Source: Bilabrum cf. latius
Taxonomy: Eukaryota
Length of the DNA stretch: 64,000 nucleotides
Direction: 5' to 3'
Assembly (NCBI GenBank): GCA_965178125.1
Contig: OZ237767.1
Span: forward strand, 248,001 to 312,000
Below, in pieces: positions 43,081 to 64,000 of this stretch; position 1 is the first letter of the stretch; each line of letters opens with the position of its first letter. Position numbers and translations under genes: made by a program. The notes beneath the pieces were generated by a model. The model ran no database searches, was not told the origin of the DNA, and saw nothing but the letters and a program-made list of their open reading frames with translations.

Positions 43081-43209
43081 GATGCTGAGTGAGTTGCAGC
43101 CGCCGGTCTGTATTTGTCCTTTAGTTGCGTGGATCTTCGCAGGAACCCTGGACTGCGTCGTGGCACGCATCGACTCGTGTGGCACGCACAACATTATTTA
43201 TTTTTAAGT

Positions 43210-46200: not shown

Positions 46201-47489
46201 CCACCGAGGTTCTGCTGGCGTACTCTGCGCTGGGACTGGGCTTTGGCGGCATGAACAAGATTCGATTCCGGATCACGGACCTCTGCGGTGCGTTCCGCGC
46301 GCCATCGCAGGGTGAGCACGGAGTGGCCTTGGTGTACGTGGCAAGGGAGGGCCAGCGGTTCTCGGATGGGCCGGTTCCGCAGACCGTCCGCGGCGCCGCG
46401 CCAGCCGTGCAGCTGGGGTGGGCCGCGCTGGAGGATGAGGAGCGAGCCAGGCTGGCTGGGCTGGGCGGCATATCCGCCCTTGATGTTCTCTAGCTGAGCC
46501 TGGGAGGGAAGGCGGGCCAGCTGCTGCTTCTCCTCGCCCTGCTGCGGCAGGGGCTCAAAACACCGAGGACTGCCCTCCTTCCAGACAGCGACGAGGGGAG
46601 GCGGGCAAAGCTGCAGCAAGATGTGGCCAGACTGGTGGACGCAGAACGGGAGGAAGAAAATCGAAATCCAAGGTCGACCCAGGCGGCGGGCGAACCCGGT
46701 GCCAACGAGGGAAGGAAGGAGGAAGAGGAAGAGGAAGAGGACCTCTTTGCCGCGGCACCCGCAACCGGCTCCGCTGGACAATCGGCGGCGGTCGAGGCGG
46801 TACTATCCGCGGGTATGACGAGTGGGGGTGCGGCCGAGGACGGCCCACGCGCCGGAGAAGAACAAATCGACCTGTTCGGCCTGCTGGCCGCGAGCGAGAC
46901 CCGGCGAAGGGCAGCCGCATCGGGTGTCGGTGCTCGGGGGCAGCGCGCGGGGAGCAGCGGAACCGGCGCCGCGCAGAGCGGGCTCGATGAGGATGCGGAC
47001 GAGCTGGAGGACATTTTCAGCGGGATGCAGGCGCAGGCCGAAGCGCGCGGCGCCGGTTCCGCAGCCCCAGGTCTAGAGACAGGCGATGCTGAGGCCCCCC
47101 CAGCTCAGAGCGGAAGCGAATCGCGACCAGGACTCAGTGCTGAGGTACAAGAGAAGCTGGATGGCGGGATGTCGGTGTCGGCCATGCGGAAGGTACTCCG
47201 CTCGGCTGGCGTTGATGCCTCACGGAGGGGCGTGACAGAGAAGTCGGAGATGGTGTCGCTCGTGAGGTCGGTCCTCGCCGGTGAGGGCGAATTCGCGGGG
47301 TAGCAGCAGGCCAGGGCGGAAGCAGAGCTCCTGGGAAAGCCTGCCCCCCTCACGGGGTACAGTGGGGAGGGCCCCGGGACTATTTCCCGTGGAGGCAGCG
47401 GCGCTTCGTTGCGCAGCGACAGGGCAAGCTCTGCCAGCATGGCGCAGCAACCGCGTCCGGCCTCTGACGATCCGTTCGCGGGGTTGTAA
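43210..47489 (+). CDS. Large hypothetical protein with two MSxKEL..EKxE helical motifs, possible GRAM/PH-like segment and terminal DD(A/P)FAGL motifs
   Basis: ORFs 43275, 44466, 46125 and 46623 are in frame via TAGs; ends DDPFAGL-TAA at 47487-47489. First exon MSAFDDAFAGL. Motifs MSAKEIKAYL..CLEKKEFVDL and MSVSAMRKVL..TEKSEMVSL. Confidence 0.6.
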
Positions 47490-47728: not shown

Positions 47729-48550
47729 CCCCCCCCGCTACGGTAATAAATAAATTTATTCCCTTCGGTTAAGGATGATTAACATCATCAATAGTTCCAG
47801 TCCATCAGAGCTAAAGCTCTTCAGTCCGTTTCACTCCTTTTGTCGCTAGTCGCTCCAAAAGTCAAGGTAATCTCTATAAAAGATATAGTACAAAAAATGC
47901 TATTTATATAGTATATTATAACATTTCTTGTACCGGGGCTTTTGTTAGAAGGTCAAATGGGACTTTTGGTGTTTTAGTATAAAATAGTCCCTTCATTTTA
48001 GAAGGGTGATTATTTGACCTTCTAAAGTTCAATGTAAATTTATAAAATTAATTCAAGTTCAATCATTAATGAAGGTAAAGCAATAAAATTATATATTTAG
48101 AATGATTATCTAAGGGGTACCCCTTGAAATGGTAATTTAGGGCTAAATAGAATATTAAATATGATAATAATGGGTCATAATAGTATTTAATTTAAAAGAA
48201 TATATTGATAAATAATAAATATATGATATGAATGTATAAATATTAAAAAAAAAATGAAAATGAATATTGAAGTTGAAGTTCAGTATATCTTAGGAAATGT
48301 TGGTCTTTAAAAGTATATGTATAAATAAAAATGAATGTGAATATTCAAGTTCAGTATTAATTCTCATTACGTGGATCTCTCAAGTTTGTGAAGGTGTTAT
48401 GGGACTCTAGCCATTTTCTAGCCAAAAGTTCCATCACTTTATGGGACTCCATTATTCAACCTTCTAAACTACCTTCATTATACCCCCTTATCCTCGCTTA
48501 TACCTTCACAAATGGAACAAACGCGCTTTTATTTTTAAATTGTTATAGAG
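47729..48550. repeat. Non-coding terminal region of the virophage, probable left terminal inverted repeat
   Basis: ~820 bp without ORFs at the element edge; internal inverted repeats 47945-47958/48012-48025 and 48385-48395/48502-48512; palindrome 48112-48125. The partner TIR is not in the window. Confidence 0.5.
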
Positions 48551-48596
48551 CGTTTAAATTGACTTAAAAAATATATTTATTATAGGTATATACAGA

Positions 48597-49394
48597 ATGG
48601 AAGAATTCAAATGGGAAAATGGAACCTTGAAAGCTACACAACCAAAAGAATATTATGAACGAAATGGATTTTAGGTTAATTTTGAAGGGAAAACCTATCA
48701 TATAGCAATGGATAAAGATTATATAAGATGGTTTTTGAAGGACTATAAACCTTATGAAATAATAACAACATTCATAACAGATATGAGTGAAGTATTCAAT
48801 GGATAGGATAAATTTAATGAACCTTTGAATACTTGGGATGTTTCAAATGTTAAGGATATGAGTTTAATGTTTCAAAGTTGTAGAAGCTTTAATCAACCAT
48901 TGAGCAATTGGGATGTTTCTAAGGTTGAAAAAATGTCGTCTATGTTCTATTTTTGTTCTAAATTCAATCAATCATTGAACGATTGGAATGTTAGTAATGT
49001 TAGGGATATGAGTGGTATGTTTGGTTCTTGTTCAAGATTCAATCAACCATTGGGTAATTGGGATGTTTCTAACGTTGAATATATATCCTCTATGTTTAAT
49101 GGATGTTAGAACTTCAATCAACCATTGGATAATTGGGATGTTTCCAATGTCTAGAGTAAGTTTTAGATGTTAAAAGATTGTGAAAGTTTCAATCATTTAG
49201 AGAACGGTATTAAGGGTATAAGAATTGATTATTCTACAACATTGATACCGTTGTTAGAAAGACGAAAACATAAAACCATTAAAAAAACAAAGAAATATAG
49301 AGAGGAATTAATTGCTAAAGCGTGGCACCCTTCAAGATTAGATTGGGTATTGGATAACGAGGAGCGAGACGAGATAGAGGATAATTTTAATTAA
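48597..49394 (+). CDS. DUF285/BspA-type repeat protein, copy 1 (265 aa)
   Basis: FNQPLxNWDVSNVxxMxxMF repeats continue through TAGs at 48672, 48804, 49107, 49152 and 49164; TAA stop; C-terminal EELIAKAWHPSRL. Confidence 0.9.
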
Positions 49395-49483
49395 TAGAAT
49401 TTTAATAATATTAATGATTATTTAATATTATAGTGTGAGTTTAAAAAGGCTTAAATAATATATTTATTATAGGTATATACAGA

Positions 49484-50281
49484 ATGGAAGTTTTAAAATG
49501 GGAAAATGGAACCTTGAAAGCTACAAAACCAAAAGAATATTATTTTAGAAAAGATAATTATATTGTGAAATTTGAAGGTAAAACATATTACGTAGCTAAA
49601 GATACAGATTTTCTTCTTCACGCATTGTAGTTTTTGAAACCTGAATTATTAGTAACAACATTTATTACGAATATGTTAAACCTATTTGATAATATGATAA
49701 TTGAATCACCAATAAATTCATGGGATGTTTCAAATGTTAAAGATATGACCGATATGTTTTATGGGTGTCATTCGTTTAATCAACCTTTAAATAACTGGGA
49801 TGTTTCAAATGTTGAAGATATGGGCGGTATGTTTAATGAGTGTCATTCGTTTAACCAACCATTGAATAATTGGAATGTTTCAAATGTTGAAGATATGAGT
49901 GAAATGTTTAATGATTGCCATTCATTTAACCAACCATTGAATAATTGGAACGTTTCAAATGTTAAAGATATGTGCGGAATGTTTTATGATTGCCATTCAC
50001 TAAATCAACCTTTAAATAACTGGGATGTTTCAAATGTTGTAGATATGGAATGTATGTTTTCTAATTGTTTTAGTTTTAATCATTTGGAGAATGGAATTAA
50101 GGATGAACGAATTGATTATTCCACGACATTAATCCCATCATTAGAAGAGCGGAAAGATGAAACAATTGAACAAACTAAAAAAATCAAAGAAGAATTAATT
50201 TCTAGAGCGTGGCACCCTTCAAGATTAGATTGGGTATTGGATAACGAGGAGCGAGACGAGATAGAGGATAATTTTAATTAA
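49484..50281 (+). CDS. DUF285/BspA-type repeat protein, copy 2 (265 aa)
   Basis: Same repeats; N-terminus paralogous to copy 1 (MEVLKWENGTLKATKPKEYY); one TAG at 49628; TAA stop. Confidence 0.9.
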
Positions 50282-50322
50282 GTTTTATTATAATAATTAT
50301 TTTATTTTTAATTATTATAGAT

Positions 50323-50670
50323 ATGGTTTATATTGTATCATTAGCGTGGGGTAGTGAATGTTATCATACACACTGGGTTAAAAAGTTTAATAATAAGGAA
50401 GAAGCACAAAAGCTTTATACTGACACTTTAAAAGACCAAGCGAAGAGAGTTGTATGGAGTGATAATTGGAAAGAAGAATATAAAAAGGAAGCAGAAGGTC
50501 AAGTTGAAAGTTTTAATGATGACAACGGAACCGATTTCAAACTATTGAAAGAAGAAGAAATTGATAACCTTACTAATAGTGAATTAGAAGAGTATATAGA
50601 ATTATCGTTGATGTATGCTGAAGAATATGATGATTCAAATGAATGGTTTGATATTGAGTTTTTAGAATAA
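50323..50670 (+). CDS. Acidic hypothetical viral protein (115 aa)
   Basis: Clean ATG-TAA ORF with AT-rich upstream region. Confidence 0.75.
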   Translation: MVYIVSLAWGSECYHTHWVKKFNNKEEAQKLYTDTLKDQAKRVVWSDNWKEEYKKEAEGQVESFNDDNGTDFKLLKEEEIDNLTNSELEEYIELSLMYAEEYDDSNEWFDIEFLE

Positions 50671-50896
50671 ATTTTTGAATTTTAATAATACTATTATTAT
50701 TATTATTAATATATAGTTTAATCCTTGGGTAAGATAAAGTCATCTATAGCCTTTTTGATGATGTCATCCTTCTATTTCTTTATTGATTTCTCAATGGCTT
50801 CCTTCTCTTTTTTAACCAATAAATCTATGGCTACGGTATCATTTAAGTCTTCACTTAGGTATTCAACATTTTCTTCATTTAGCTTATGTATTATTC

Positions 50897-52515
50897 TGAT
50901 CCTAACGCCGGATGGGGTTCGGTGTTGATGCCAGAGTGGGAGCGCGTGAACGTCTCGTTGGGTTCCGATGGCGGTTGCGACCGGGAAGGTGCGACCAAGC
51001 CAACGGATTGCTTGCGATGACGCGCATACCCTCTCTGTGTTCAGGAGAGGGGCGGAGATTGGGTAATTTTTGCGCTCTCGAGATTCGCAGTCTTCTTAGG
51101 GGAATGTTCGCCTCTCAGTGGCGGCACCATCGCTACATACACCAGAAATGCCTAGCGAGTCGTCATCGAGTCCACAGGAGCGTGCGGCGTCCCACGGTCA
51201 CGCTAGCTCGACAGCATCCTCCGGTACTACCACAAAGCATCGCCATCGGCGCACCCGTTGCGTCGATCTTCAGCCCCACTCCGCGCAATCCGACGGTGTT
51301 TCTCGACAGCCGGTTGCAGCACAACAGAGTAGGCTGCTCGGACAGCTGTCTGTCTCTGCTTCTGTGGGGGCCTCCGGCTGGGAGAGCTCGTCGGTGCGTC
51401 CAGACGACAAGCCGGCCTCCAATGGCAGCAAGTGCAGTTCATCACGCGAGACGGACGCATCCATGGTGTTGCCATCCGCCTGGGCCTCCACAAAGCCGAC
51501 GGCCCAGCCAAGTTCTCCATCCCAGCCGCAGAGCCCATCGCAGTCCATTGCAGAGCCGGACGATGGGCAGTCACAGGCAGCAGGTTCTGCGGCGTGCGAG
51601 CCTTCGTGGCGTGGGCAGCAGCGAGCCACGCCCCAACTGCAGGCGCAGACGAAGACTACGCCCGGTAGCTGGCGCTCAGCTGCCCCACGTCAGGGCCAGT
51701 CTTCGTGGCGAACACGAAGCCGATCGTCAAGGCGCAGGTAGTACGGGCGCTCCGCAGCTTCTGCTCACGAGAAGTTGCAGGAGCGGTGCACGGACATTCC
51801 ATCCGCATCGCGGCAGTGATGTGTTTGGACCGTGCTGGGGTCGCCTTCGAGGTCATTAGGCGATTTGGCAGATGGAAGTCGGCATCTGCATGCGAGGTGT
51901 ACTTGCGGGGCGTCAGGGAAGGCTTGCCTCCTCTGGAGCTCGGCGGCAGGAGCCTCGATTTGAACAGGCCAGTGTGGGTGCTGGCCAGCGCGCTGCGGCT
52001 GAACTTGGAGTGAGCCACACAGCCGCAGCGTACAAGACATGGCGGTAAGATTTGGCGGAGTAGTGCACGTGCTCTTCCCAGCCCCGGTCAGTCCGGTCAA
52101 GGGTCGCGCACAGGCACAGCTTTGTCAGGTCTTGCCATGTCTGATTGTTAACGAGACTAGGTTGCGCGTACACTCTGGCATCATGATCCTAACGCCGGAT
52201 GGGGTTCGGTGTTGATGCCAGAGTGGGAGCGCGTGAACGTCTCGTTGGGTTCCGATGGCGGTTGCGACCGGGAAGGTGCGACCAAGCCAACGGATTGCTT
52301 GCGATGACGCGCATACCCTCTCTGTGTTCAGGAGAGGGGCGGAGATTGGGTAATTTTTGCCCACCCTCCCAACCCCCTCCTCCTCGGCGGAGTAGTGCAC
52401 GTGCTCTTCCCAGCCCCGGTCAGTCCGGTCAAGGGTCGCGCACAGGCACAGCTTTGTCAGGTCTTGCCATGTCTGATTGTTAACGAGACTAGGTTGCGCG
52501 TACACTCTGGCATCA
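50897..52515 (+). mobile_element. Internally deleted Ngaro-type tyrosine-recombinase retrotransposon with split direct repeats A1-[YR]-B1-A2-B2
   Basis: GC-rich island. A1 50897-51073 = A2 52184-52360 (177 bp); B1 52054-52183 = B2 52386-52515 (130 bp); YR ORF in between; no target-site duplication. Confidence 0.92.
51063..52013 (+). CDS. Tyrosine recombinase of the Ngaro element (5'-truncated, no in-frame ATG)
   Basis: With TAG read-through (51153, 51204, 51330, 51666): RFAVFL..LSGGTIATY, FCGGLRLGEL (Arg I), LHKAD (Lys), GHSIRIAA (HxxR), FGRWKS (Trp), EVYLR (Tyr); TGA at 52011-52013. Confidence 0.88.
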
Positions 52516-52854
52516 TAAATGGTTGAACGAAATATGATATATAGTCAATTTCTTCAAATTCACTTAATACTCTTTTTTTAAGTCGTTCATTACAATCTGG
52601 AGGGACACGAAGGTCATCAAGTTGAAAATGCTTTAACATTGATGGTTTGTGCTTCTCAACATAAATATATACGATTGACATAAAAGTGGAGATGCTTTTA
52701 TTCTTGAGTACCTTTTTAACGTTGACACTTGATAACAGGAACTTAACGAACATATTATAATGTAGCCCAATATTTTATTTTGATTTATTAAACCCGTTTT
52801 ATAAAATTCTATAGTTTAAAAAAAATATAAAAAATATCTAGTAATTATATATAA

Positions 52855-53226
52855 ATGGATAAATTACAAAAAGTGATTAATACCCGCTCAAAGTTAAAGA
52901 ATGAATTTCTTGATATTGTAGAAGACTTTAAGAAGACCAATCGTGAATTAGAACAAAAGTTAAAGCAACTAAAAATAAAAGAGACAGAATTAAAAAATAA
53001 AGTGAATAGTAAATTAACCGCTCTTAATGTGGAATATAAAGAGGTGAGCAAAAAGAAAGCAGAAGCTATAGCCCCTTATATGAAAACTTTAAAAGCATTA
53101 AAAGGAAGGATGACTGGATTGACAAAGAAAGACAAGGACAAGCTGATTGACGTTCATCAAGAGATAAGGAAAATTAAAGAATAGATTAAAGTAAATGAAG
53201 CTATTAATAGGCTTTTTAATTCGTGA
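52855..53226 (+). CDS. Lys-rich coiled-coil viral protein (123 aa)
   Basis: ATG 52855, one TAG at 53182, TGA at 53224-53226; heptad-like K/E/L pattern. Confidence 0.75.
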
Positions 53227-53266
53227 ATAATTAATTTATAAATATTAAAATCAATTAATATACATA

Positions 53267-54424
53267 ATGAGTAAGAGAGGAAAGAAAAAAGATAATGATA
53301 TTAATGAGTCAAGTTTTGGATTTAATACGAAGTCTATCACGAACGATTTAATGAAGCCGATAAAGAAACCGAAAGGATTGAATTATGTTAAATATTATAA
53401 ACCTACTAAAGAGGGGCTTATCCAATAGGCTGATTTATTGTATCTCCCTTACGCTACCAAGAACGATTCAAAATATTTATTAGTTGTGATAGATACGAGC
53501 GGGTTAGCGTTAGATTTTGAAGAGTTAAAGGATAGAGGGGCGGAGGATGTGATAAAAGCTTTTCAAAAAATCTATAAAAGAAATTATTTAATGAAACCTA
53601 AAATGATACGAACAGATAAAGGGGGAGAATTTGATAATGAATTATTTAAAGAATATCTAAAGAAGAATAAGATAGAGCATATATTTTCAAGAGTGAAGCG
53701 TAAATCGTAGATGGCTTTAGTGGAGAGATTGAATGAGGAAATAGGGAGAGCTATATTTTATTATTTGAATTCATAGGAGATAAGAACGGGGACAACTATC
53801 ACGAACTGGAGACATTTAATACCAAAATTGAGGGAGATATTAAACGAGCGTTATAAAACAAGATAGGAAATGTTGAATAAGAAAAGGGAGAATCTACCAT
53901 ATATACCGCCTAGATGTTAGGGTGAAGTATGTGATGTATTAAATGAGGGTGAAATGGTAAGAATAGGATTAGATTATCCTAGAAGTATAGAAGGGATAAA
54001 GGAAACCGGAGCATTTAGGGCGGGAGATATTAAATATAGCGTAAAGCCTTATAAAATTGAAAGAGTAATAATAAAACCAGATAACCCCCCATTATATAAA
54101 ATTGAGGGCATACCCTATACATACTTTAATAGAGATTAGTTGTTATTAGCATCTAAACCATACGAGAATAAAGCACAAGATATATTTATAATTGAAAAAT
54201 TGATAAGAAAGAATAAAAATAATACATACAGGGTTAAATGGAAAGATTCATATGTTGATGAGGCTACTAAAAGAAAATATTAGAATGATATAGGTAAAAT
54301 AATAAAGAGAAGAAAGAATCAAGAGGGACAAGATGAATATTTAATTCAATGGAAGATAACAACGGAGCCGGCTAAAAATATATCAAAAACTCTAAAGGAT
54401 AATTTTAATAATAAGACTAAATAA
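53267..54424 (+). CDS. Retroviral-type (rve, DDE) integrase with C-terminal chromodomain (385 aa)
   Basis: Q*ADL (D1), YLLVVID, RTDKGGEF (D2), *MALVERLN (E); FRAGDIKYS..PDNPPLY; chromo-like FIIEKLI..YRVKWK..YLIQWK..TEPAKNI. 7 in-frame TAGs; TAA at 54422-54424. Confidence 0.93.
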
Positions 54425-54453
54425 ATATTATTAATTTATATTTTAATAATATT
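54424..54453. terminator. AT-rich hairpin between convergent viral genes (candidate 3'-end signal)
   Basis: Perfect 11-bp inverted repeat AATATTATTAA (54424-54434) / TTAATAATATT (54443-54453). Confidence 0.5.
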
Positions 54454-54460
54454 CAAATAA

Positions 54461-55078
54461 TTACACTCTGTAGGTCATATTATAGACTGACATAACCATC
54501 TATGAAAGCCCTTCAAACGTATTATACACGCTATACTCATTAGGGTTAAAACTTTTCAAAAATTCAGCTCGTGAATGTCTTGCTACATCCTTATCTTCAT
54601 TATCTAAATCTTTATGGATTTTGCTATACAGTTTATCGCTGGGTATAGCTACGCATATGCTGGATTTTTTGAATATTTCTTGTGCTAGTTCAAAATCACT
54701 TGTTAAAAAGACTGCTCTATGTTCTGCTTTCTATAACCAATTTTTCTTTACAGACTCAATACTTTTTTTCATAAGTTCAAATTTTAATAATTTAGCCGTT
54801 GATAAGTCCCCTCTTCGTTCTGCTTCGTTTAGGTATAAAACCTGTTTGGTGTCAGCATTAACTTTAAGGACTTCATCTAAATCAACTAATAGAATATTCG
54901 GGTCTATAGACGTTAAACTTTTGTTAAGTGAACTTTTACCTCCTTTTCGTGGAAGGACTAAACACAATTTTTTACGATTCGCAAGTGAGGAACATAAGTT
55001 CCAAAGGAAGCATCCCGCATATCCTAGAGGAACCAACACCCCACCAACCGTGCTTGCTGTTGCTACTAACTCTGCCAT
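54461..55078 (-). CDS. Small P-loop NTPase/kinase-like viral protein (205 aa)
   Basis: LCLVLPRKGGKSSL (atypical Walker A), ILLVDLDE; 2 in-frame TAGs; TAA at 54461-54463. Confidence 0.65.
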
Positions 55079-55123
55079 TATATATATCTATACAAAACAA
55101 AATATTATTATCCTATAGACTAA

Positions 55124-57193
55124 TTATTTTAATAATCTTAGTTTTTCAAAGTGTTGATATAAGATTTGTTTTACCTTGTCCTTCACATTATGATTACCTT
55201 TACCACCGGCTACATTAAAATATTCTTGTTCAATTTGTCCTCCTTTATGCTTGCCACATCCACAACTACCGCCCCTGTTCTATGTTTTTATTTTCTAATC
55301 AATAATTAAATTAATAGCTTTCATTAACATATTATAAGGGTCTTTATTTCCGAAACCTTGAGCTGGTGGTGAATATGTCCATATAGGTATTCCATCCATT
55401 TGATAACCGTTATCAGTAAGAATACTTTTTGCTTGTCTACTAACTGCTCTTGTATCTCTTCCTTCTGTATTTGCTCTGGCTACTAAATCAGCGATTCTCT
55501 CAGGTGGTAGATTAGGTTGTAATACTCCGGCTTTAAGCCTTCGTACAATATATTTTAATGTAGTTGCGGTTTTTGATTCTACTGGATTTATTCCAGCTTT
55601 TTGTAATTGTGATAATATCTATTCCTTAGTTGAACCTGTTTTTACATTTATTGATTGTCCTATTGATTTGGCTATTTCATCATCTGTTTTCTGTGGTTCT
55701 TCTGGTTCTTGTGGTTCTGCTGGTTCTGCTGGTTGTGCTTGTTCTACGGCTTCTCCATCTCTTGGTTCTTCATCTGGGGCTCCCCTCCGTTCTCTAGCTT
55801 GTCTTTCTTTTTCTTCTTGTTGTCTTTGTGCTTCATCTCGTTCTGCCTGTGCTTGTCTTTGTCTGAATTGAACTTCTGTAAGTTGTCTTCCAAATTCATC
55901 TGTAATAGGTTCTCCATCTTCATCTACTGCCATCGCTTCACCTTTTCCTCTGTCTTGACCTGCGGGGGGTGCTTGTGGTTGTGAGCCTGTTTTTCCTGTT
56001 AAATAACTGATACCATCCATAACCGATTGTCCTAAAGAACCAAATGTGCTTTGTTGTTGTTCTGGTGATTGTCCTTGTTCTTGTTCTGGTGATTGTCCTT
56101 GTGGTGCTGGTGATGCTTGTAAGAATCCACTAGGTGGAACTGGTGCGGGTGATACTTTTGAAAACTAGCCTGATAAATTTCTACTGGCGTTCTCCCCTTC
56201 TTCTTCTTGTCCTGATGATTGTGATGCCTCTTGTTCTTGTGCTTTTTGTTTAAGTTCTGATAATTTCTTCTAAGCACTTTTTATAAAATCAACTTTAGAC
56301 CGTCCTTTTACACCTTTAACATTTGACTATCTAAGTATTGATGCTAGTTCGGTTTTCTTTGGTGCTTTTCTACTACTTGAAGGATTGGCGTTTGCTACTC
56401 TTTCAAGTGCTTCAATTTGTTCTTGTAGTTCTGGGCTTAATGCTTCTTGTGGTGTTGGAGGGGGTTTTGGTCTTGGTTCTGGTGGCGGTTGCGGGTTATC
56501 TGGTTCAGGTCTATCAGGTTGCGGGTCATCTCTTTGCTATTGTTGAACGGCTTCAGGAGGATTTAAAACATCCTATAAAGCATTAACAGCGTCATCAACT
56601 TTTGTTAATTGTGAAACATTCTATCCTTGGGGGGTTTTCGTGATTCCAGCTTGTCGTAAAGCGTTTCGTATTTGAACTGCTTTTAATCCTCTCATATCGC
56701 TTGGTAATTGTTCTAATACTGCGTCCCGTTGTGCTTTGGTGGTTGTGAATAATCTCATATTAATATTTTTAATTCCATCAAATACCTTTTTCTTATCGCT
56801 TGCTGGTCCTACTACCTACCTTACATTAATATTATTAATGGTATCTACAACCTATCTTTTTAATTTATCCGGTAAATCTGGATTTCTATTTATAAATGAT
56901 TGTAAATTTTCTATTTGATAAATTGGTAATTCTTTTTTAGCGTTCATAGTCTTAATATTTTTAATAATATTTTCAATTCCTTGTTGTTGTTGTTGTCTTT
57001 CAATTCTAACATCAATAGGAACATAATTAGCACGAAGAAAAGCATCATCTTTTAGGGTTTTTCTTCTGGCTTCTGCTTCATCTTCTTCTTGCTATATCAT
57101 TAATCTAACTTGTGGGTCATTTTGTATCCTAAGTTGATTAGACCGTTTCTACATAATACCCTTCAGTAAATCATTAATTGTATTGTTTGACAT
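55124..57193 (-). CDS. Large Gln/Pro/Glu-rich viral protein (689 aa), possible core/structural precursor
   Basis: Continuous frame from ATG 57193 to TAA 55124-55126 with >10 TAGs and no TAA/TGA; includes track ORF 55619-56020; C-terminal GG motifs (RGG, KGG, AGG). Confidence 0.8.
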
Positions 57194-57270
57194 TGTATAT
57201 ATATATTATTAATGATATAATTAATAATTTATAAACTTAAGAGATAATATGTCAATTGGTAGGCTGTCTT

Positions 57271-57639
57271 TTAAAATGAAATATCCTTATTCATAAGGTC
57301 GTGTTTCTTTATAAAAGCATTGCTGGCTTTCATAGTCATTCCCTTTTGACGGCACCATTTCATTAATTTATCCCTCTTTAACTATTTAGCACTACGGGGC
57401 TTTTTTGTTTTAGGGGCTTTCTTTGAACCCTTCTTTTTTCCTCCAGCGAGAACGTTCGGCTATCCACCAAGAAAGTTTACAGCTCCCCCTGTTGTCTTTC
57501 CTTTTGTGGTTGCGTTTAATATTTGGTTTGCGGTATCTTCAACCATTTTATCAATTTCTTTTTTATAATCATTTCTGTTTATTCCAAGATGATGAAGGCT
57601 TTTATTTGTCATATCATTTATGCTCTATTTAACGCTCAT
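57271..57639 (-). CDS. Small basic viral protein (122 aa), putative DNA-binding core protein
   Basis: ATG 57639 to TAA 57271 with 3 TAGs. TGG/LGG/AGG motifs precede KKKGSKKAPKTKKPRSAK and RDKLMKWCRQKGMTMKASNAFIKKHDL. Absent from the ORF track. Confidence 0.75.
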
Positions 57640-57696
57640 ATTATTGTATATATTGGGTATATATAATTTGTTATTTATCCATACTTATAATATATA

Positions 57697-58512
57697 ATGA
57701 AAATTAATGAATTGACACAAGCTTATTTTAATGAATACGAGAACGATATATTTGATGAGGTGAATTTTAAGAAGGGGGCTAATTTATTTTTAAATGGTTC
57801 GTATGCTATTCCTTATTATTCCTTGTTTGCTAGTGATATAGATTTATATTAGAGGGTAGAGCCTGAATTTATAAATAGTTTAATAAGATTTGTAAAGGTT
57901 TTTATAAGTTAGGTTAATTTTATTGAGGTTAAAGCTGGTAATAAAAAATACAAGACCATAAAAGCATTCATATCTACACCCGTTAAAACCATTTATAAAT
58001 AGATATTTAGCGGAGATAAACCATACTTAAAAATTGATTTTTGGGCTTTTGATGGAAAATTTATTGATGAAATAAGCATAATTTATCATATAAGTGATTA
58101 TGAAATAGATTAGGACGAGGTAAAAGATGGATTAATAAGAGATGTAGATAAATATTTTGGTTCTAATAATTTTAAAGTATTAAAACGATTGAAGGATTTA
58201 TTTAAATTAAGAGGTGAGAAGAGGAATGAAAAAAGAGTCAATGATTTAATTGATAGGGAAGCATTAGGATATTTATATTCCATAAGAATGCGATTAGAAA
58301 GTATGCTAAGAATAAAAGGACATCAAAGAGAGAAGTCAAAATCATTTCAAAGCCTAAAAGGACTAATGAGAAAAGCATTAGGAAATGTGGAAATAATAAA
58401 ACAATTTTCAAAGTATTCTAAAGCAAATATTAATAAGATAATATCGTGGATTGACCAATACATAAATAGGAAAACACGGGCGGAAATTAAAAATATAATT
58501 ATGTCTCTATAA
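57697..58512 (+). CDS. Pol-beta-superfamily nucleotidyltransferase-like protein (271 aa)
   Basis: LNGSY..FASDIDL (hGS..DxD) and later YLKIDF; frame open through several TAGs into ORF 58189-58512; TAA stop. Confidence 0.7.
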
Positions 58513-58604
58513 CTTTTTTTGTGAGGAAGGATAGAAGAAGGAACCAACTTAATATTTTAAACCCGTATAAATGAATGGTTTATTTTATTTTATTATTATA
58601 TATA

Positions 58605-59675
58605 ATGCTATCTTTACAATATACGGAAAATAGCCATATTGTAGCTATTCAAAAATATAAAAAAACACAATAGAACCGGTTTATTTATTACGACCCGAAC
58701 GCTAAAGATATTCAACACGTCAAAGCGGAAGAGATAACAGATGATGTTTTAAAATCTTATTACGGAGAAAGCCGAGTAAGATATAACGTTGATAAGGACA
58801 AGAAAAGGGAACAATTACATAAACTATTACAAGATGAATATATACGGTCAGTTTAGGAATTTGCGATTAAAGATAATAGTCAATATTTACCTTTTCCTAT
58901 GCTCTTTCCATAGGGGCGTGAATATGTGCGATTATTTGGTAAGAGTGGAAGCGGGAAAAGTCATTTAGCTTTACATTATATAAGGATGTATAGAGGATTA
59001 AAATATAAAAATATGTATGTTATATCACCAATTCAAGACCCTAAATATAAAAGAGAAGGCGCGACCTTCATTGATATAGATGATTTGGTTAAAGAGAATG
59101 AAAACACTTTATATAAGGAAAAAATGGCTTATTATAAAAAAATGAAATTAGAATTTAAATATAAAAAATCTTCTTTGATGAAATCTAAACCTTTAGATGT
59201 TGTTATTGAAGCTGAAAGAAAGATAGAGGATTTGAAACCTGAGAAAGATTTAATAGAAAAAGGTTTTAAATTAAATGTTGAGTTTTTTAAAAAATTGACC
59301 GCTGAACCTAATTTATTTATTCTGGATGATTACGAAGGCTTTAAAAAAAGGAACCAGAAAGCAAAGGCTTATTTTTTATTGGAAATCCTAGCAACTACAG
59401 GAAGGCACACAGCAAGTAGCGTTTTAGACATCACCCACAAAATAAGCGACGGTATGAAGACACGAACCATTATGAACGAAATTACAACCCATATCATTTA
59501 TAAAACAATTACAGCTAAAAGTTTAAAATATATTTTAGAAACAGTCTTAAGTTTTGACGCTCCTACTAGAAAACGAATTAAAAAAACCCTTCATTCTCTC
59601 CCTCTCTTTGGTTATGTTGCTATTAATGTTGATAATAATTATGTAGTTAGCACAAAAAAAATATTTCTCTATTGA
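58605..59675 (+). CDS. FtsK/HerA-type virion DNA-packaging ATPase (356 aa)
   Basis: Walker A GKSGSGKS, Walker B LFILDD, TGRH motif; N-terminal 107 codons (MLSLQY..) contain 3 TAGs; TGA stop. Confidence 0.92.
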
Positions 59676-59683
59676 ATATATAA

Positions 59684-60259
59684 ATGAACATAAACGACTT
59701 AAATAGACTAGTCCAAACACCGTTATCTCCTTTAGAAATTCAAAAATTAGGTGTAGCACATTTGAATTACAAACCTAGAATAGTTATTTACGATGATATT
59801 ATTAAATAGACCTCATCTATTGAACATATTTTTGATGGTTATGACGGCGTAATTATTTATTATCCTAATAAAAAGACGGGACTAAATAGCACATACGGTC
59901 ATTTCATTTCATTGACCAGAAAACCATCAAGCAAAATAATATACTTCTTTGATAGCTATGGAGAAAAACCCGACCAATAGAAACCATTTATTAATAGAGA
60001 CCAATTGTATCAAGGAGAAGGAGAAGAAAATACGCTGGTAAAGTATTTAATTGATTAGAAAATGGAAGGTTGGAAAATTGATTATAATCATAAACCGATT
60101 TAGAGTTATGCTAACAACAGCGCTACGTGTGGAAGATGGGCTCTATTAAGAAACGCTTTTTCTTTCTTATCAAATGATTAGTTTGTAAATGAAATGTTTA
60201 GAATATCCAAAATTATGGCTCTTAGTCCTGATTAGTTAGTGGCGTTGCTTCTACATTGA
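59684..60259 (+). CDS. Adenain/Ulp1-like virion maturation cysteine protease (191 aa)
   Basis: YGHF (His), YFFDSYG (Asp), YNHKPI*S (Gln position = TAG 60101), ATCGRW (Cys). 6 TAGs; TGA at 60257-60259. Absent from the ORF track. Confidence 0.93.
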
Positions 60260-60595
60260 ATACTCCGACCATCTAATAAAAGGGCTAGAATAAAATAATA
60301 AAATATGATTATCTCTAAAATAAAATCCATACGATGGCTATATCCACAAATTGCGTATATATTATAGTGTTTTCTAGCAAAACGTGGATGTAGGGCCTCT
60401 TGTGAAGGTGAAATGAAGATATAAGCCCTTTTATTTAGAAAAGTTCCATCGTTTTAGAAGGGCAATTTTTCATCCATCTAAATTCAATCAAACTTTTAAA
60501 TATATTGGTAAAAGTGAAGGGTAAAAATCAAGATGAAATATTAGATAAGGTTTATTAATAAATATTTATTTGTATAGCTTTAATATATAAATAAA

Positions 60596-61549
60596 ATGAG
60601 TTATAGCGATGAATTTGTAAGATTGAATTTAGTTAGTTCATCTGTCCCCCACAATTAGACGAGATAGGCGGTAGTGAATGAAACCCGTGAAGGCTTAATA
60701 TTAAAACAAAGTGAAAATTATTTAACGGCTGTTGAAGAGATGGATTTAAATAAATTTATGCTACCGGTGTTTAAACCTGAATATTAGGATGACAGCGGTA
60801 AAACCTATTTAAAATTTACTCTTGAGAATAAAACATCAGGAGCCAGAGCAGGCGATTATATAGTTCTAGGTAAAAAAGCTAAATTTTATTATTCATATTA
60901 GGATATTGTAAATGAATTTAATGAAGAGTTAAGCCGAATTTGTGATTTGGTAAGCCTTCCAAGTGGTGATAAACCAGTCTTTAAATTTGAAAATAATAAA
61001 TGGAGTTTATCAACAACTGAAGATTTTAGAGATAATTATTATTTATTTGTTAATTTTGAAGCTTTTGCTTTATTTGATAAATTTGAATATGAAGGAATAA
61101 CAACCACACCGAGTGATTTATTTGCTAAACTTTCATATAATAATTCCCCTGCTAGTGGTGATTATGTTTTTATGGCTAGATAGACGAATTTAAATTCTTG
61201 GTGCCCTGTTAAATCTATTATCGTAGAAAGTGATATTCCAGTGAATAAAGAATTGGTGACCACAAAATCATCTACTGGTGGCTCTATAGCCGTCAATAAA
61301 TCCCCTATATTAACCAGCTACCCGTATAATCCTAATGACAGCTCACCAATAGAAAATATATTATATGTTTCTAATCCTTACCGCTGGTATTCAATGATGA
61401 AGGATAGAAGCTTTAAGAGCGTGTCAATGGCGTTCTACTGGGTTGATAAACAAAATGAAAAGTATCCCGTAATGAATTTTAACGGGGGTGAAGCTCACAT
61501 TAAACAAGTATTTAAAAAACAAACCGATAATTTAAGTTTAGATTTTTAA
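60596..61549 (+). CDS. Minor capsid (penton) protein (317 aa)
   Basis: NETREGLIL..YLTAV..LPVFKP, WCPVKSIIVESDIPV, YRWYSM..FYWVDK..KQVFKK resemble virophage pentons; located between protease and MCP; joined via TAGs; TAA stop. Confidence 0.85.
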
Positions 61550-61620
61550 ATAAATTATAGAAGATTATAAAATATGTTTAGATATTAAAAAATTTATATC
61601 TATAGTGTATATATAAAAAA

Positions 61621-63510
61621 ATGGCTCAACAAATGGTTCAGAATTTACCAGTAAGCATTAAGGCTCCTAAAAGCCTTCAAATGATAACCCCTGAAGATGC
61701 TAGTTTAGGAACAGAACTAGGTGTTCAAAAATATACCCGCCGAGAAATTAGACCATCATCTAATCAATCTAATTCTCTTCTTCCCCTTTCTTTCCCCGTT
61801 AATCCTACTAGTAAAACCGTATCAAGGTTTATTCGTCTTCGTCATCGTATGACAGTTAGGCTACAACTAGAGCAAGCAGTACCAGCTCAAACTGCGGGAG
61901 GTGATGCTATTACCGCTCAATCTTATCTTAAATCTAGGTTTGGAACTAATTCATTACCTACCTTTAAAATGCTTCAAGGTGGTGTTTTAACAATTAATGG
62001 ATAGCCTTTTACAGTAAAAGTTTATGAATGGGCTGAACCTACTGAAGTTATGAACAGTGAAGAAACCTTATCCACAATCTCACCCGTTGGACGCCCTGAC
62101 ACTGTTGGTGATTATCGTGAAGTAAGTGATACCCTTAAAAATCCTTTAGCTTGGGGTTAGGATGTTGGATATAGTGCCGGTGATAGCTTTAGTTATCGTG
62201 GAGCATATGGGAATGCTTTTACGACTGTAAGTGCTGATTTCGTTGCGGGTAATAGAGACCAAATTGATTGGACTATTGATTTTCAAGAAGCTATACCACT
62301 AAAAGGAGCAGATGTTGATGTGAATGCTAAGTATTTTACCGGTGTAAGAAGCCTTCAAGTTGATTTAGATTATCACGTAAATGCTATTCAAAGACTGTGT
62401 AAGGCTAGTCTTACAAAAGATAACGGAGATATTAATAAAATAACGGCTTAGTCAATTATAGGAGAAACAAATACGACCCTTCTTGTTGATGAAGTTGAAT
62501 TTTAGAGTGGATACGCCCCCCCGACTCGTTGTATGTATAATATGCCTACAATTAAATTTTAGTCTTAGGCTCCTATCCCTGTAGCTAAATCCGCGACTGA
62601 AAATTCTTTAACTTCTTTTGATTATCAATTATCCCGTGAGAATGGTATCCCTAGTGCTATTATGGTATGTGCCCGCCTTGTTGGTTGTGATGATAACCCT
62701 AACTGGGCTAATAGAACTTTACCAATTAGAAGAATAGGTTTCTCACTCAATGGAAGTGCTGAGGAATTAGGGGCTGTAGATAATCCACACGAATTATATA
62801 GAATTAGTAGAAAGAACGGATATGCTCTTCCTCCTTCATCCTTTTATGGTTCATCAATTGATGGAAGTGATGGAAACCGCGGTACTGGTTGCTATATGAT
62901 TTTAAAACCTTCAGATGTTGCTACACTTGCTGGTGTTCAATCTAATGTAAATACTGGATTTAATCTTAAAGTTAATCTTCAGTGCTTCAACCCTTATAAT
63001 AAATATGCGGATGGTGCGAATGAGGATAAATACGAGATAAAAGTATGGATGTTTTATGATAATGTTCTTGTGAATGATAACGGTGTCTATACTGAGGCTG
63101 GTGCCCTTATTGAGCCTTCCAAAGTGCTTTCTGAACTTGCTAAACGTGGTGATGCTGAAAGTGGTTCTAAAGGTTTCTAGCCTGTATTTGAGGATTTAGA
63201 TAATTATGCTAATGTTATGGGTGGAAAAGGTCGTTTCTGGTCTAAGATTGGACGAGCCTTTAAACACGGATGGAACAAGGTTAAAGATTGGGCAAAAAGT
63301 GATTAGGCTAAAAACCTAGCTAAACAAATTAGGAATATAGGACCACTCAAAAGTCTAACAGGAAACAATACCGCTCTTGGCAAAGCGGCGGCACATTATG
63401 GATATGGAAATAGTGGAGGAGAATTGAATAAGCTTGGTGGAAAACTTACGATGCGTGGTGGCTAGGCTATGCGTGGAGAAGATCTCGAGGCCCTTTTAAG
63501 CACATCTTAA
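61621..63510 (+). CDS. Major capsid protein (629 aa) with cleavable C-terminal extension
   Basis: Frame open from ATG 61621 to TAA 63508-63510 with 9 TAGs. LTING, IPSAIMV, LPIRRIGFSLNG..ELYRISRKNG..YMILKPSD motifs; VMGG followed by amphipathic tail. Confidence 0.9.
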
Positions 63511-63557
63511 ACGTTTAAAATGACTTAAATATATATTAACTAACTAATATATATCAA

Positions 63558-63848
63558 ATGGAAAAGTTAAATAAAATTATTGAGAATCTACCGCCTACAC
63601 ACGATGTCTATATCCAGACAGAAATTGATGGAGTTTTGACCGTAATTTTTACAAATAGTGATTAGGTAAAAGAAATCACCAATCAATTAAAAAAAGACAG
63701 TAGAGAGGAGCTATTATATCTCAAATATTCAACCTATAAATGTATTATATAGACGAGGAATAAGTATAGAGATGATGACATTTTACTTCATTATTTGGCT
63801 GTTTGTCTATTAGAAAAGAAACCCATTCAATTACATAAGGCAAGATAA
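63558..63848 (+). CDS. Hypothetical viral protein (96 aa)
   Basis: ATG after TATATA motif; 2 TAGs; TAA stop. Confidence 0.65.
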
Positions 63849-63900
63849 TCATTTTATTATTTATTTATACATATTAAATAAATATATGACCTGTGAATGA

Positions 63901-64000
63901 TACTTTCCGAAGTTGGTTCACACTTTCCGAAGTTGGTTCACACTTTTCAAAGTAGGTTCACACTTTCCGAAGTTGGTTCATACTTTTCAAAGTAGGTTCA
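63901..64000. repeat. 20-bp tandem repeat array (at least 5 units, truncated by window end)
   Basis: Units YACTTTCCGAAGTTGGTTCA and YACTTTTCAAAGTAGGTTCA in the order A-A-B-A-B. Confidence 0.95.

What the first reader, a model, noticed from the sequence alone, without database searches (positions are those of the whole stretch)
47729..64000. Intact-looking endogenous virophage recoded to the host's UAG=Gln code
Seen: integrase (7 TAG), ATPase (3), protease (6), penton, MCP (9) and all accessory genes except the one split by Ngaro become full-length, frameshift-free ORFs ending in TAA/TGA once TAG is sense. With the standard code they look like debris and several vanish from the ORF track. Established: the gene order ATPase-PRO-penton-MCP plus rve integrase is that of mavirus and its endogenous relatives in Cafeteria burkhardae; virophages are translated by host ribosomes and depend on a giant virus. 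Inference: this is a eukaryotic dsDNA virus lineage locked to a recoded host. It could not express its genes in a standard-code cell, and its helper giant virus must also tolerate UAG=Gln, making a host-virophage-giant virus system with a genetic-code host-range barrier that standard pipelines would miss.
Basis: partly seen in the sequence, partly recalled or inferred. Interest (0 to 1): 0.95.

Follow-up and report, generated by a model that had tools for sequence, protein, structure and literature searches.

The report
Endogenous virophage written in UAG-glutamine code
A mavirus-like virophage sits in the chromosome of a protist that reads the stop codon UAG as an amino acid, and the virus's own genes are full of in-frame UAG, so it could make its proteins only in a host with this altered genetic code.

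Summary
From about 47.7 kb to the window end, a 30% GC island sits in 60% GC eukaryotic DNA. Read with TAG as sense, it gives 14 uninterrupted ORFs: 61 in-frame TAG, 0 TAA, 0 TGA in 4039 codons. All 14 end in TAA or TGA.

Penton and major capsid protein (MCP) are firmly virophage-type. The penton matches the mavirus penton 6G41 (E 6.5e-24). The MCP model matches mavirus MCP 6G45 (Foldseek E 7.7e-34). An rve integrase is present. The ATPase and protease calls rest on motifs and position only.

Host genes in the same window also carry in-frame TAG, and two of these in a kinase align with conserved Gln. A 1.6 kb GC-rich insert with Ngaro-type A1-B1A2B2 repeats, but no reverse transcriptase or recombinase, splits one accessory gene. 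Removing it restores the frame.

Unresolved:
- The right end, terminal repeats and any replication genes lie outside the window.
- Giant-virus dependence and a recoded helper virus are inference.

Precedents exist: Streblomastix elements that use the host's TAA/TAG=Gln table, and giant-virus MAGs with alternative codes. A public protein collection already holds the integrase read with TAG=Gln. I rate this a new variant of a known kind, of high but not extreme interest.

The parts
47729..48596 (.). Left terminal non-coding region of the AT-rich element (candidate terminal repeat). The host/element boundary lies within about 47.5-47.9 kb.
   Evidence: GC drops from 0.63 to 0.28 across 47.25-48.15 kb. 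No ORF of 60 aa or more lies within 47729-48596 with TAG=Q; the longest are 42 and 56 aa. No partner arm could be sought because the right end is outside the window.
48597..49394 (+). DUF285 repeat protein, copy a (265 aa, 5 TAG)
   Evidence: Pfam PF03382 E 4.1e-56; TAG count.
49484..50281 (+). DUF285 repeat protein, copy b (265 aa, 1 TAG), tandem paralogue of copy a
   Evidence: Direct repeats D1, D2 and D5 link it to copy a, including 123 nt that span the upstream region and the start (87% identity). Not scanned against Pfam.
50323..50670 (+). ORF of 115 aa with no TAG; unknown function
50718..50896 (-). 3' part of an accessory ORF split by the GC-rich insert
   Evidence: Joining it to 52516-52753 in a script gives one 138-aa ORF with 1 TAG that ends in a stop.
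50897..52515 (+). GC-rich (about 0.6) insert of 1619 bp with Ngaro/DIRS-type split direct repeats. A1 is 50897-51073, B1 52054-52184, A2 52184-52360, B2 52386-52516. Both repeat pairs are 100% identical. The boundary is ambiguous by 1 nt.
   Evidence: No Pfam family at E up to 0.01 in its two long ORFs.
52516..52753 (-). 5' part of the split accessory ORF
52855..53226 (+). ORF of 123 aa (1 TAG), coiled-coil-like; unknown function
53267..54424 (+). rve-family integrase with a chromodomain-like C-terminus (385 aa, 7 TAG)
   Evidence: PF00665 E 5.8e-11, 43 bits against a cut-off of 32.6. Chromo scored 21.8 bits, below its cut-off of 25.1. PDB integrase cores matched at E 0.002-0.04. TAG54 aligns with Gln two residues before the first catalytic Asp of the HTLV-2 integrase core. 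The exact product is in a public collection.
54461..55078 (-). ORF of 205 aa (2 TAG); unknown function
   Evidence: no Pfam family.
55124..57193 (-). ORF of 689 aa (13 TAG, 65 CAA), rich in Gln, Pro and Glu, low-complexity; unknown function
57271..57639 (-). ORF of 122 aa (3 TAG), basic; unknown function
57697..58512 (+). ORF of 271 aa (4 TAG) directly upstream of the ATPase, the position that MV14 holds in mavirus and EMALEs
   Evidence: Position only. Hackl 2021 states that the ATPase is always preceded by MV14. No Pfam family. The single-sequence AlphaFold model was unusable, pLDDT 42.5.
58575..59675 (+). Putative packaging ATPase (366 aa, 3 TAG)
   Evidence: Only P-loop-level Pfam hits, E 0.014-0.05, around residues 116-144. 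A Walker A-like motif is visible in the translation. It lies before the protease, penton and MCP genes. Homology to FtsK/HerA-type ATPases was not shown.
59684..60259 (+). Putative maturation cysteine protease (191 aa, 6 TAG)
   Evidence: No Pfam family at E up to 0.1 and no meaningful PDB sequence match at E up to 1. His73, Asp90 and Cys149 are visible in the translation. Assigned by position between the ATPase and the penton.
60596..61549 (+). Penton (minor capsid) protein (317 aa, 5 TAG)
   Evidence: Mavirus minor capsid protein 6G41: E 6.5e-24, residues 22-294 against 29-291 of 307. PF21507 E 5.3e-7, 29.2 bits against a cut-off of 27.
61621..63510 (+). Major capsid protein, double jelly-roll (629 aa, 9 TAG)
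   Evidence: Mavirus MCP 6G45, E 9.8e-8 by sequence. 55 relatives at E up to 1e-3, with full-length alignments such as 5-597 against 1-580 of 599. AlphaFold model pLDDT 75, pTM 0.74. Foldseek: 6G45 E 7.7e-34, TM 0.79 by target; Sputnik 3J26 E 2.2e-26. Top BFVD hits are virophage MCPs.
63558..63848 (+). ORF of 96 aa (2 TAG); unknown function
63902..64000 (.). Tandem array of a 20-nt unit, 4.9 copies, cut by the window end

Best explanation
Window 47.7-64.0 kb is the left and central part of a mavirus-like virophage integrated in the nuclear genome of a GC-rich, intron-poor eukaryote. That host reads UAG as a sense codon, most likely Gln, and keeps UAA and UGA as stops.

The virophage genes are written in the same code. 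UAG supplies about 30% of their Gln codons (61 of 201), and no gene ends in UAG. The lineage has therefore evolved for a long time on ribosomes that read UAG as sense.

Shown: a virophage-type MCP and penton, an rve integrase, sense use of TAG in element and host, and a host-like Ngaro-type insert inside the element.

Inferred by analogy with mavirus and the EMALEs of Cafeteria:
- The rve integrase inserted the element.
- The element stays silent until a giant virus infects the cell.
- Short AT-rich promoters next to each start codon are then read by the giant virus's transcription machinery.
- Host ribosomes translate the mRNAs, UAG included.
- ATPase, protease, penton and MCP build virions that lower the giant virus's yield.

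Consequence: in a standard-code cell, 13 of the 14 intact ORFs would be truncated, so the code acts as a host-range barrier.
For: Gene identity:
- Penton against mavirus 6G41, E 6.5e-24, near full length; PF21507 above its cut-off.
- MCP against mavirus 6G45 by sequence and by fold, E 7.7e-34, ahead of Sputnik at E 2.2e-26. Top BFVD hits are virophage MCPs. 55 relatives were found, several aligned end to end.
- rve integrase, 43 bits against a cut-off of 32.6.

Code in the element:
- 61 TAG, 0 TAA, 0 TGA in frame in 4039 codons; stops TAA x11 and TGA x3; CAG only 7 against CAA 133.
- Only the TAG reassignment opens the frames, far beyond shuffles.
- The family-wide C-terminal MCP motif lies downstream of TAG615 and in frame with it, so that codon must be read through.
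- Integrase TAG54 aligns with the Gln two residues before the catalytic Asp in the HTLV-2 integrase core.

Code in the host:
- Eight stop-to-stop ORFs of 902-1456 aa carry 60 TAG.
- ATE_N and ATE_C domains sit in one frame with six TAG between them. PHR plus kinase, seipin, PARP and exonuclease domains were also found.
- Kinase TAG723 and TAG730 both align with Gln in NEK1. TAG730 also aligns with the conserved Gln in EGFR and in a PKR/Nek7 chimera chain (6npy_B).

Residence in the genome:
- A sharp GC step lies next to a host ORF that ends at 47489.
- A host-like GC-rich insert with 100% identical A and B repeats splits one virophage ORF. Removing it in a script restores a 138-aa frame.
- Six of 7 listed sequencing runs, from 2 studies, hold 85-89% of the sampled words of 54-64 kb. 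One of these may be the source of the assembly.
Against: - No primase/helicase or DNA polymerase was found among the 13 intact island ORFs scanned against Pfam (the second DUF285 copy and the split ORF were not scanned). In low-GC EMALEs these genes accompany the integrase near one end.
- The right end, the terminal inverted repeats and the target-site duplication are outside the window, so completeness and a bona fide integration footprint are not shown.
- ATPase and protease have no significant family or structure match.
- The identity of the residue at virophage TAG sites is only weakly supported by MCP homologues. Gln is 5.5% at the 9 TAG columns against 3.4% background, and His and Lys are more enriched. 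Integrase TAG148 aligns with Ser in PFV integrase. Host ATE1 TAG127 aligns with Ser or Glu.
- The CroV/mavirus late-promoter motif TCTA lies upstream of only 4 of 15 starts.
- No close relative was found in IMG/VR or JGI metagenomes.
- There are no expression data and no giant-virus sequence.
Confidence: 0.85

Rival explanations
1. The element is a self-sufficient Maverick/Polinton-like endogenous virus or transposon with a virophage-type capsid module. It does not need a giant virus, so no recoded helper virus need exist.
For: No giant-virus sequence and no CroV-type TCTA promoter enrichment (4 of 15 starts). Mavirus-type virophages share ancestry and the rve integrase with Maverick/Polintons (Hackl 2021, passages). 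Lifestyle cannot be read from the capsid genes.
Against: Penton and MCP match mavirus and other virophages best, not adintovirus or polinton capsids. A short AT-rich motif, TATATA, lies within 30 nt of 11 of 15 starts against 5% of random island windows, as expected for cytoplasmic virus-type promoters with very short leaders. No protein-primed polymerase, the Maverick/Polinton hallmark, is in the window.
Confidence: 0.15
2. TAG is sense but encodes a residue other than Gln, or is ambiguous (sense or stop depending on context).
For: At the MCP TAG columns, homologues show Lys and His more enriched than Gln. Three inspected sites align with Ser or Glu. No tRNA gene in the window and no genome held.
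Against: Host kinase TAG723 and TAG730 align with conserved Gln, and integrase TAG54 aligns with the Gln before the catalytic Asp. Host TAGs sit inside Gln runs, and one virophage TAG lies within a run of four Gln in the 689-aa ORF. CAG is nearly absent from the virophage (7) while TAG is common (61). That pattern fits TAG replacing CAG under AT pressure by a single transition (interpretation mine). None of the 14 ORFs needs TAG as its stop.
Confidence: 0.08
3. The element is a decayed virophage relic in a standard-code host, and the TAGs are nonsense mutations.
For: With the standard code the genes look fragmented. One gene is disrupted by a retroelement-like insert.
Against: 61 TAG against 0 TAA and 0 TGA in frame, although TAA and TGA are commoner off-frame. 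No frameshifts. Conserved sequence continues in frame after the TAGs. Host genes show the same pattern.
Confidence: 0.01
4. The window is an assembly chimera: a free virophage genome from the culture wrongly joined to a host contig.
For: Only one junction is visible.
Against: A GC-rich, host-like insert with Ngaro-type repeats lies inside the AT-rich element. Such retroelements insert into chromosomal EMALEs in Cafeteria (Hackl 2021, passages). The element uses the host's rare code.
Confidence: 0.03

Closest known systems
Mavirus and the endogenous mavirus-like elements (EMALEs) of Cafeteria burkhardae (Hackl et al. 2021, eLife, PMC8547959; passages read)
   Same: An AT-rich element in a GC-rich flagellate-like genome. 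It has a virophage MCP preceded by the penton, an rve integrase with a chromodomain-like tail, and ORFs in the positions of MV14, ATPase and protease before penton and MCP. It carries a GC-rich insert with A1-[..]-B1A2B2 repeats. About 87% of it is coding, and the ORFs show no sign of introns.
   Different: All but one of its genes carry in-frame TAG. No primase/helicase or pPolB lies next to the integrase. The TCTA promoter motif is not enriched, and TATATA lies next to the starts instead. The insert is 1.6 kb without ORFs, against about 6 kb with RT and YR. MCP identity to the mavirus structure is only about 18% in the fold alignment.
Endogenous polinton-like/Maverick elements of Streblomastix strix that use the host's TAA/TAG=Gln table (Bellas et al. 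2023, PNAS, PMC10120064; passages read)
   Same: An integrated double jelly-roll capsid virus whose genes are read with the host's reassigned stop codon, taken as a sign of long association.
   Different: There the capsids belong to a Metamonada polinton-like group and both TAA and TAG are reassigned. Here the capsid module is virophage-type and only TAG is reassigned.
Giant-virus metagenome-assembled genomes better annotated with alternative codes (Nat Microbiol 2026, PMC13524828; passages read)
   Same: They raise the idea that viruses of protists follow non-standard host codes. Code 15 was among the tables tested.
   Different: These are giant viruses, not virophages, and their hosts are unknown. 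The paper has no occurrence of the word virophage. It states that all confirmed giant-virus isolates come from standard-code hosts.
Ngaro retrotransposons (DIRS order)
   Same: Split direct repeats in A1-internal-B1A2B2 arrangement; GC-rich; inserted in a virophage element.
   Different: The internal part is only about 980 bp, with no RT, RNaseH or tyrosine recombinase match. It is best read as a non-autonomous or internally deleted derivative.

Membership tests
Mavirus-type virophage / EMALE | Double jelly-roll major capsid protein related to virophage MCPs | tested here: met
   6G45 E 9.8e-8 by sequence. Foldseek 6G45 E 7.7e-34, 3J26 E 2.2e-26. BFVD virophage MCPs rank on top. The Pfam MCP_V20_C match is below its cut-off (17.6 against 27 bits).
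Mavirus-type virophage / EMALE | Penton (minor capsid) protein encoded directly upstream of the MCP | tested here: met
   6G41 E 6.5e-24. PF21507, 29.2 bits against a cut-off of 27. The gene ends at 61549 and the MCP starts at 61621.
Mavirus-type virophage / EMALE | FtsK/HerA-type DNA packaging ATPase | tested here: inconclusive
   Only generic P-loop hits at E 0.014-0.05.
Mavirus-type virophage / EMALE | Maturation cysteine protease | tested here: inconclusive
   No Pfam or PDB sequence match. His73, Asp90 and Cys149 are visible. The 17-residue His-Asp spacing is as I recall for adenain/Ulp1-type proteases (recalled, untested).
Mavirus-type virophage / EMALE | rve-family integrase (with CHROMO domain) | tested here: met
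   PF00665, 43 bits against a cut-off of 32.6. Chromo scored 21.8 bits, below its cut-off of 25.1, so the chromodomain is only suggested.
Mavirus-type virophage / EMALE | Replication genes: primase/helicase and/or protein-primed PolB | tested here: not met
   No such family among the 13 intact island ORFs scanned (the second DUF285 copy and the split ORF were not scanned). The island is 87% filled by the listed ORFs. These genes may lie beyond 64000.
Mavirus-type virophage / EMALE | Terminal inverted repeats and a short target-site duplication | not testable with these tools
   The right end is outside the window. No genome is held. Related contigs could not be fetched.
Mavirus-type virophage / EMALE | Replication depends on a giant virus; reactivated on infection | not testable with these tools
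   Needs an infection experiment. No RNA data could be examined.
Ngaro (DIRS-order) retrotransposon | Split direct repeats A1-[internal]-B1A2B2 | tested here: met
   A copies of 177 nt and B copies of 131 nt, each pair 100% identical, with B1 abutting A2.
Ngaro (DIRS-order) retrotransposon | ORFs for reverse transcriptase/RNaseH and tyrosine recombinase | tested here: not met
   No Pfam family at E up to 0.01 in the two long internal ORFs. The whole insert is 1619 bp, against about 6 kb for Ngaro in Cafeteria.
Nuclear code with TAG=Gln and TAA/TGA as stops (NCBI table 15 pattern) | TAG in frame within conserved genes, while TAA and TGA never are | tested here: met
   Virophage: 61, 0 and 0. 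Host: 60 TAG in eight long ORFs with Pfam domains on both sides of the TAGs.
Nuclear code with TAG=Gln and TAA/TGA as stops (NCBI table 15 pattern) | TAG positions correspond to Gln in homologues | tested here: inconclusive
   Gln at 3 of 5 individually inspected sites: kinase 723 and 730, integrase 54. Ser or Glu at integrase 148 and ATE1 127. The 9 MCP columns are weakly enriched for Gln. This leans to Gln, but the sample is small.
Nuclear code with TAG=Gln and TAA/TGA as stops (NCBI table 15 pattern) | Suppressor tRNA (anticodon CUA) and altered release factor | not testable with these tools
   0 tRNA genes in the window. No genome held.

The most novel reading that the evidence does not exclude
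This provirophage is a live partner in a three-way system: a protist that reads UAG as Gln, a virophage written in that code, and an undiscovered giant virus that also functions under it. The genetic code itself would then fence off a whole virus community. The organism, present in sequencing runs from two studies, could be the first culturable entry point to giant viruses of non-standard-code hosts.
Probability: 0.35. Interest if true: 0.9.

Novelty: new variant of a known kind. Interest (0 to 1): 0.72.

Why it matters
Endogenous virophages are thought to act as inducible defence against giant viruses. Whether alternative genetic codes limit virus host range is an old, mostly theoretical question.

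Here a virophage-type element shows deep adaptation to a UAG-sense code: 30% of its Gln codons are TAG and none of its stops is. The barrier is asymmetric. This element cannot be expressed in standard-code cells. A standard-code virus entering this host would only suffer read-through at its TAG stops.

The finding gives a concrete system to test two things: whether giant viruses exist for such hosts, and how they handle UAG.

Practically, searches for virophages, polinton-like viruses and giant viruses in protist genomes and metagenomes should be run with TAG-sense translation as well.

Tried and rejected
- Own genome: none held.
- Close relatives of the MCP: the word-indexed protein search found none among proteins of similar length. 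IMG/VR peptide-pattern scan: none. JGI metagenome scans with P0002 and with alignment A2: pattern matches, but none confirmed. Alignment A1 was too divergent for the tool.
- Sister copies: P0001 (97% identical to MCP 305-629) and P0056 (identical) exist in ENA-derived contigs. Their DNA could not be fetched. The same collection holds the integrase read with TAG=Gln, so the Gln at their TAG sites may come from the gene caller.
- Sequencing runs: no RNA holder listed.
I then sent these two proteins to no other search tool, so their families stay unverified.
- MCP TAG-column statistics across 47 homologues were too weak at 20-30% identity. The ATE1 site was uninformative.
- TCTA promoter motif: 4 of 15 starts, not enriched.
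- tRNA scan of the window: 0 genes.
- AlphaFold of ORF 57697-58512 without an alignment gave pLDDT 42.5 and was not searched.
- Literature: 'mavirus' + 'UAG' gave 0 papers. For 'virophage' + 'alternative genetic code' (10 papers, 9 listed), none described a recoded virophage in the listing or in the passages I read of two of them. Supplementary tables of Bellas 2023 and Hackl 2021 were not seen and could list further cases.

Full report
The window is about 60% GC up to 47.5 kb, then drops to 0.28 within 400 bp. It stays AT-rich to position 64000, apart from a 0.6 GC block at 50.9-52.5 kb. Read with TAG as a sense codon, the island gives 14 ATG-initiated ORFs of 96-689 aa.
- These ORFs hold 61 in-frame TAG, no TAA and no TGA in 4039 codons. 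They end in TAA (11) or TGA (3), and 13 of the 14 carry TAG.
- In the off-frames of the same ORFs, TAA (447) and TGA (301) outnumber TAG (183). Decay cannot explain an all-TAG pattern; from those counts the probability is about 1e-43 (my arithmetic).
- Only the TAG reassignment opens the frames. ORFs of 100 aa or more sum to 4349 aa with TAG as sense, 1475 aa under the standard code and 1598 aa with TGA as sense. With TAA as sense the sum is 2749 aa, but shuffles alone give 1345 aa there. TAG-sense shuffles reach at most 389 aa.
- Under the standard code, integrase, protease, penton and two further ORFs have no ORF of 80 aa or more.

**What the genes are.**
- The penton aligns almost end to end with the mavirus minor capsid protein 6G41, E 6.5e-24. 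It passes the Pfam Sputnik V18/19 cut-off.
- The MCP hits mavirus MCP 6G45 by sequence, E 9.8e-8. It has 55 relatives in a 1.84-billion-protein library, several aligned from N- to C-terminus.
- Folded with a 44-sequence alignment (pLDDT 75, pTM 0.74), the MCP matches 6G45 best (Foldseek E 7.7e-34, TM 0.79 by target), then Sputnik 3J26. Iridovirus and PBCV capsids follow far behind. In BFVD the top hits are the Qinghai Lake, Sissi and mavirus virophage MCPs.
- The integrase is rve-family, 43 bits against a cut-off of 32.6. It has a chromodomain-like tail that scores below its cut-off.
- Two tandem DUF285 repeat proteins open the element.
- The ATPase and protease assignments are weaker. The ATPase has only generic P-loop hits (E 0.014-0.05). 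The protease has no family or PDB match. Both sit where mavirus and EMALE types 4-7 have ATPase and protease, before penton and MCP. The ORF upstream of the ATPase occupies the MV14 position (Hackl 2021, passages).

**TAG is read through, and probably as Gln.**
- In the MCP, the C-terminal motif shared by the 43 aligned homologues lies downstream of TAG615 and in frame with it.
- Integrase TAG54 aligns with the Gln two residues before the first catalytic Asp in the HTLV-2 integrase core.
- At the nine MCP TAG columns, homologues at 20-30% identity show Gln only slightly above background (5.5% against 3.4%), with Lys and His more enriched. Integrase TAG148 aligns with Ser.
- The host gives the better evidence. 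Eight stop-to-stop ORFs of 902-1456 aa carry 60 TAG. They contain eukaryotic domains: PHR plus kinase, seipin, PARP, a 3'-5' exonuclease, and ATE_N and ATE_C in one frame with six TAG between them.
- In the kinase, TAG723 and TAG730 both align with Gln in NEK1. TAG730 also aligns with the conserved helix Gln in EGFR and in a PKR/Nek7 chimera chain (6npy_B). ATE1 TAG127 falls at a variable site. Several host TAGs lie inside Gln runs.
- TAG makes up 15% of host Gln codons (60 of 409) and 30% of virophage Gln codons (61 of 201). CAG is almost absent from the virophage. I read this as long-term evolution of an AT-rich virus under a TAG=Gln code (inference).

**Residence in the genome.** The 1619-bp GC-rich block at 50897-52515 has the A1-[internal]-B1A2B2 split repeats that define Ngaro elements (Hackl 2021). 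Both repeat pairs are 100% identical. It has no RT, RNaseH or recombinase match and is about a quarter of the usual length. It splits a minus-strand accessory ORF. Removing it in a script, with a 1-nt boundary ambiguity, restores a 138-aa frame with one TAG. Six of 7 listed runs from 2 studies hold 85-89% of sampled words of 54-64 kb.

**What is missing.**
- No primase/helicase or polymerase was found in the 14.6 kb seen (the second DUF285 copy and the split ORF were not scanned against Pfam), and coding density (87%) leaves no room for one.
- The window ends in a 20-nt tandem array. Terminal repeats, target-site duplication and completeness are therefore unknown.
- TCTA, the CroV/mavirus late-promoter motif, precedes only 4 of 15 starts. 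TATATA lies within 30 nt of 11 of 15 starts, against 5% of random island windows. It is a candidate promoter for a different helper virus (inference).

**Comparison and novelty.**
- The element is closest to mavirus and the EMALEs of Cafeteria. It differs in its code, its promoter motif, the absence of adjacent replication genes and the short Ngaro-like insert.
- Precedents for the principle exist. Streblomastix strix polinton-like elements use the host's TAA/TAG=Gln table (Bellas 2023, passages). Giant-virus MAGs improve under alternative codes, and all isolates so far come from standard-code hosts (Nat Microbiol 2026, passages).
- My searches found no report of a virophage with reassigned stops. 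Supplements were not seen.
- A public collection already contains the exact integrase read with TAG=Gln, and MCP residues 305-629. At least one pipeline therefore does decode it.

**Verdict.** This is a real and well-supported finding, a new variant of a known kind. The host-range barrier and the recoded helper virus are reasonable inferences, but they were not tested here.

Noticed in passing
window 63902-64000: A tandem array of a 20-nt unit (4.9 copies, 87% matches) runs into the window end, just after the last small ORF. It could be part of a terminal repeat or an origin-like array. No inverted copy lies at the left end.
   Followed up: partly
window 48567-63620 (30 nt upstream of each of the 15 virophage start codons): TATATA lies within 30 nt upstream of 11 of 15 starts, against 5% of random 30-nt island windows. 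The CroV/mavirus TCTA motif precedes only 4 of 15. This may point to a helper virus with a different late promoter.
   Followed up: partly
window 473-43197 (host genes): The host itself appears to use TAG as Gln with TAA and TGA as stops. Its genes are long, intron-poor ORFs with large low-complexity inserts, for example a Gly-Ser repeat tract inside the ATE1 homologue. This rare nuclear code deserves its own genome-wide check.
   Followed up: partly
window 43121-47489: Two ORFs of more than 1300 aa overlap on opposite strands, with no Pfam family in either. At least one is probably an artefact of GC-rich, stop-poor sequence, so ORF length alone is unreliable in the host part.
   Followed up: no
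window 48534-48656 and 49421-49543: The two DUF285 genes share 123 nt at 87% identity covering the upstream region and the first codons. This indicates a tandem duplication that included the promoter.
   Followed up: no
public protein collection (P0001, P0056, P0063): Public ENA-derived contigs of 8.4-12.8 kb carry the exact integrase, an identical MCP C-terminal part and a 97% identical variant. At least two variants of this virophage therefore exist in public assemblies. The MCP fragments start at Met305, which suggests contigs that begin inside the gene and extend rightwards beyond this window (inference).
   Followed up: partly
sequencing run X7: One run from the same study and organism label as a holder has next to none of the sampled words of 54-64 kb.
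   Followed up: no
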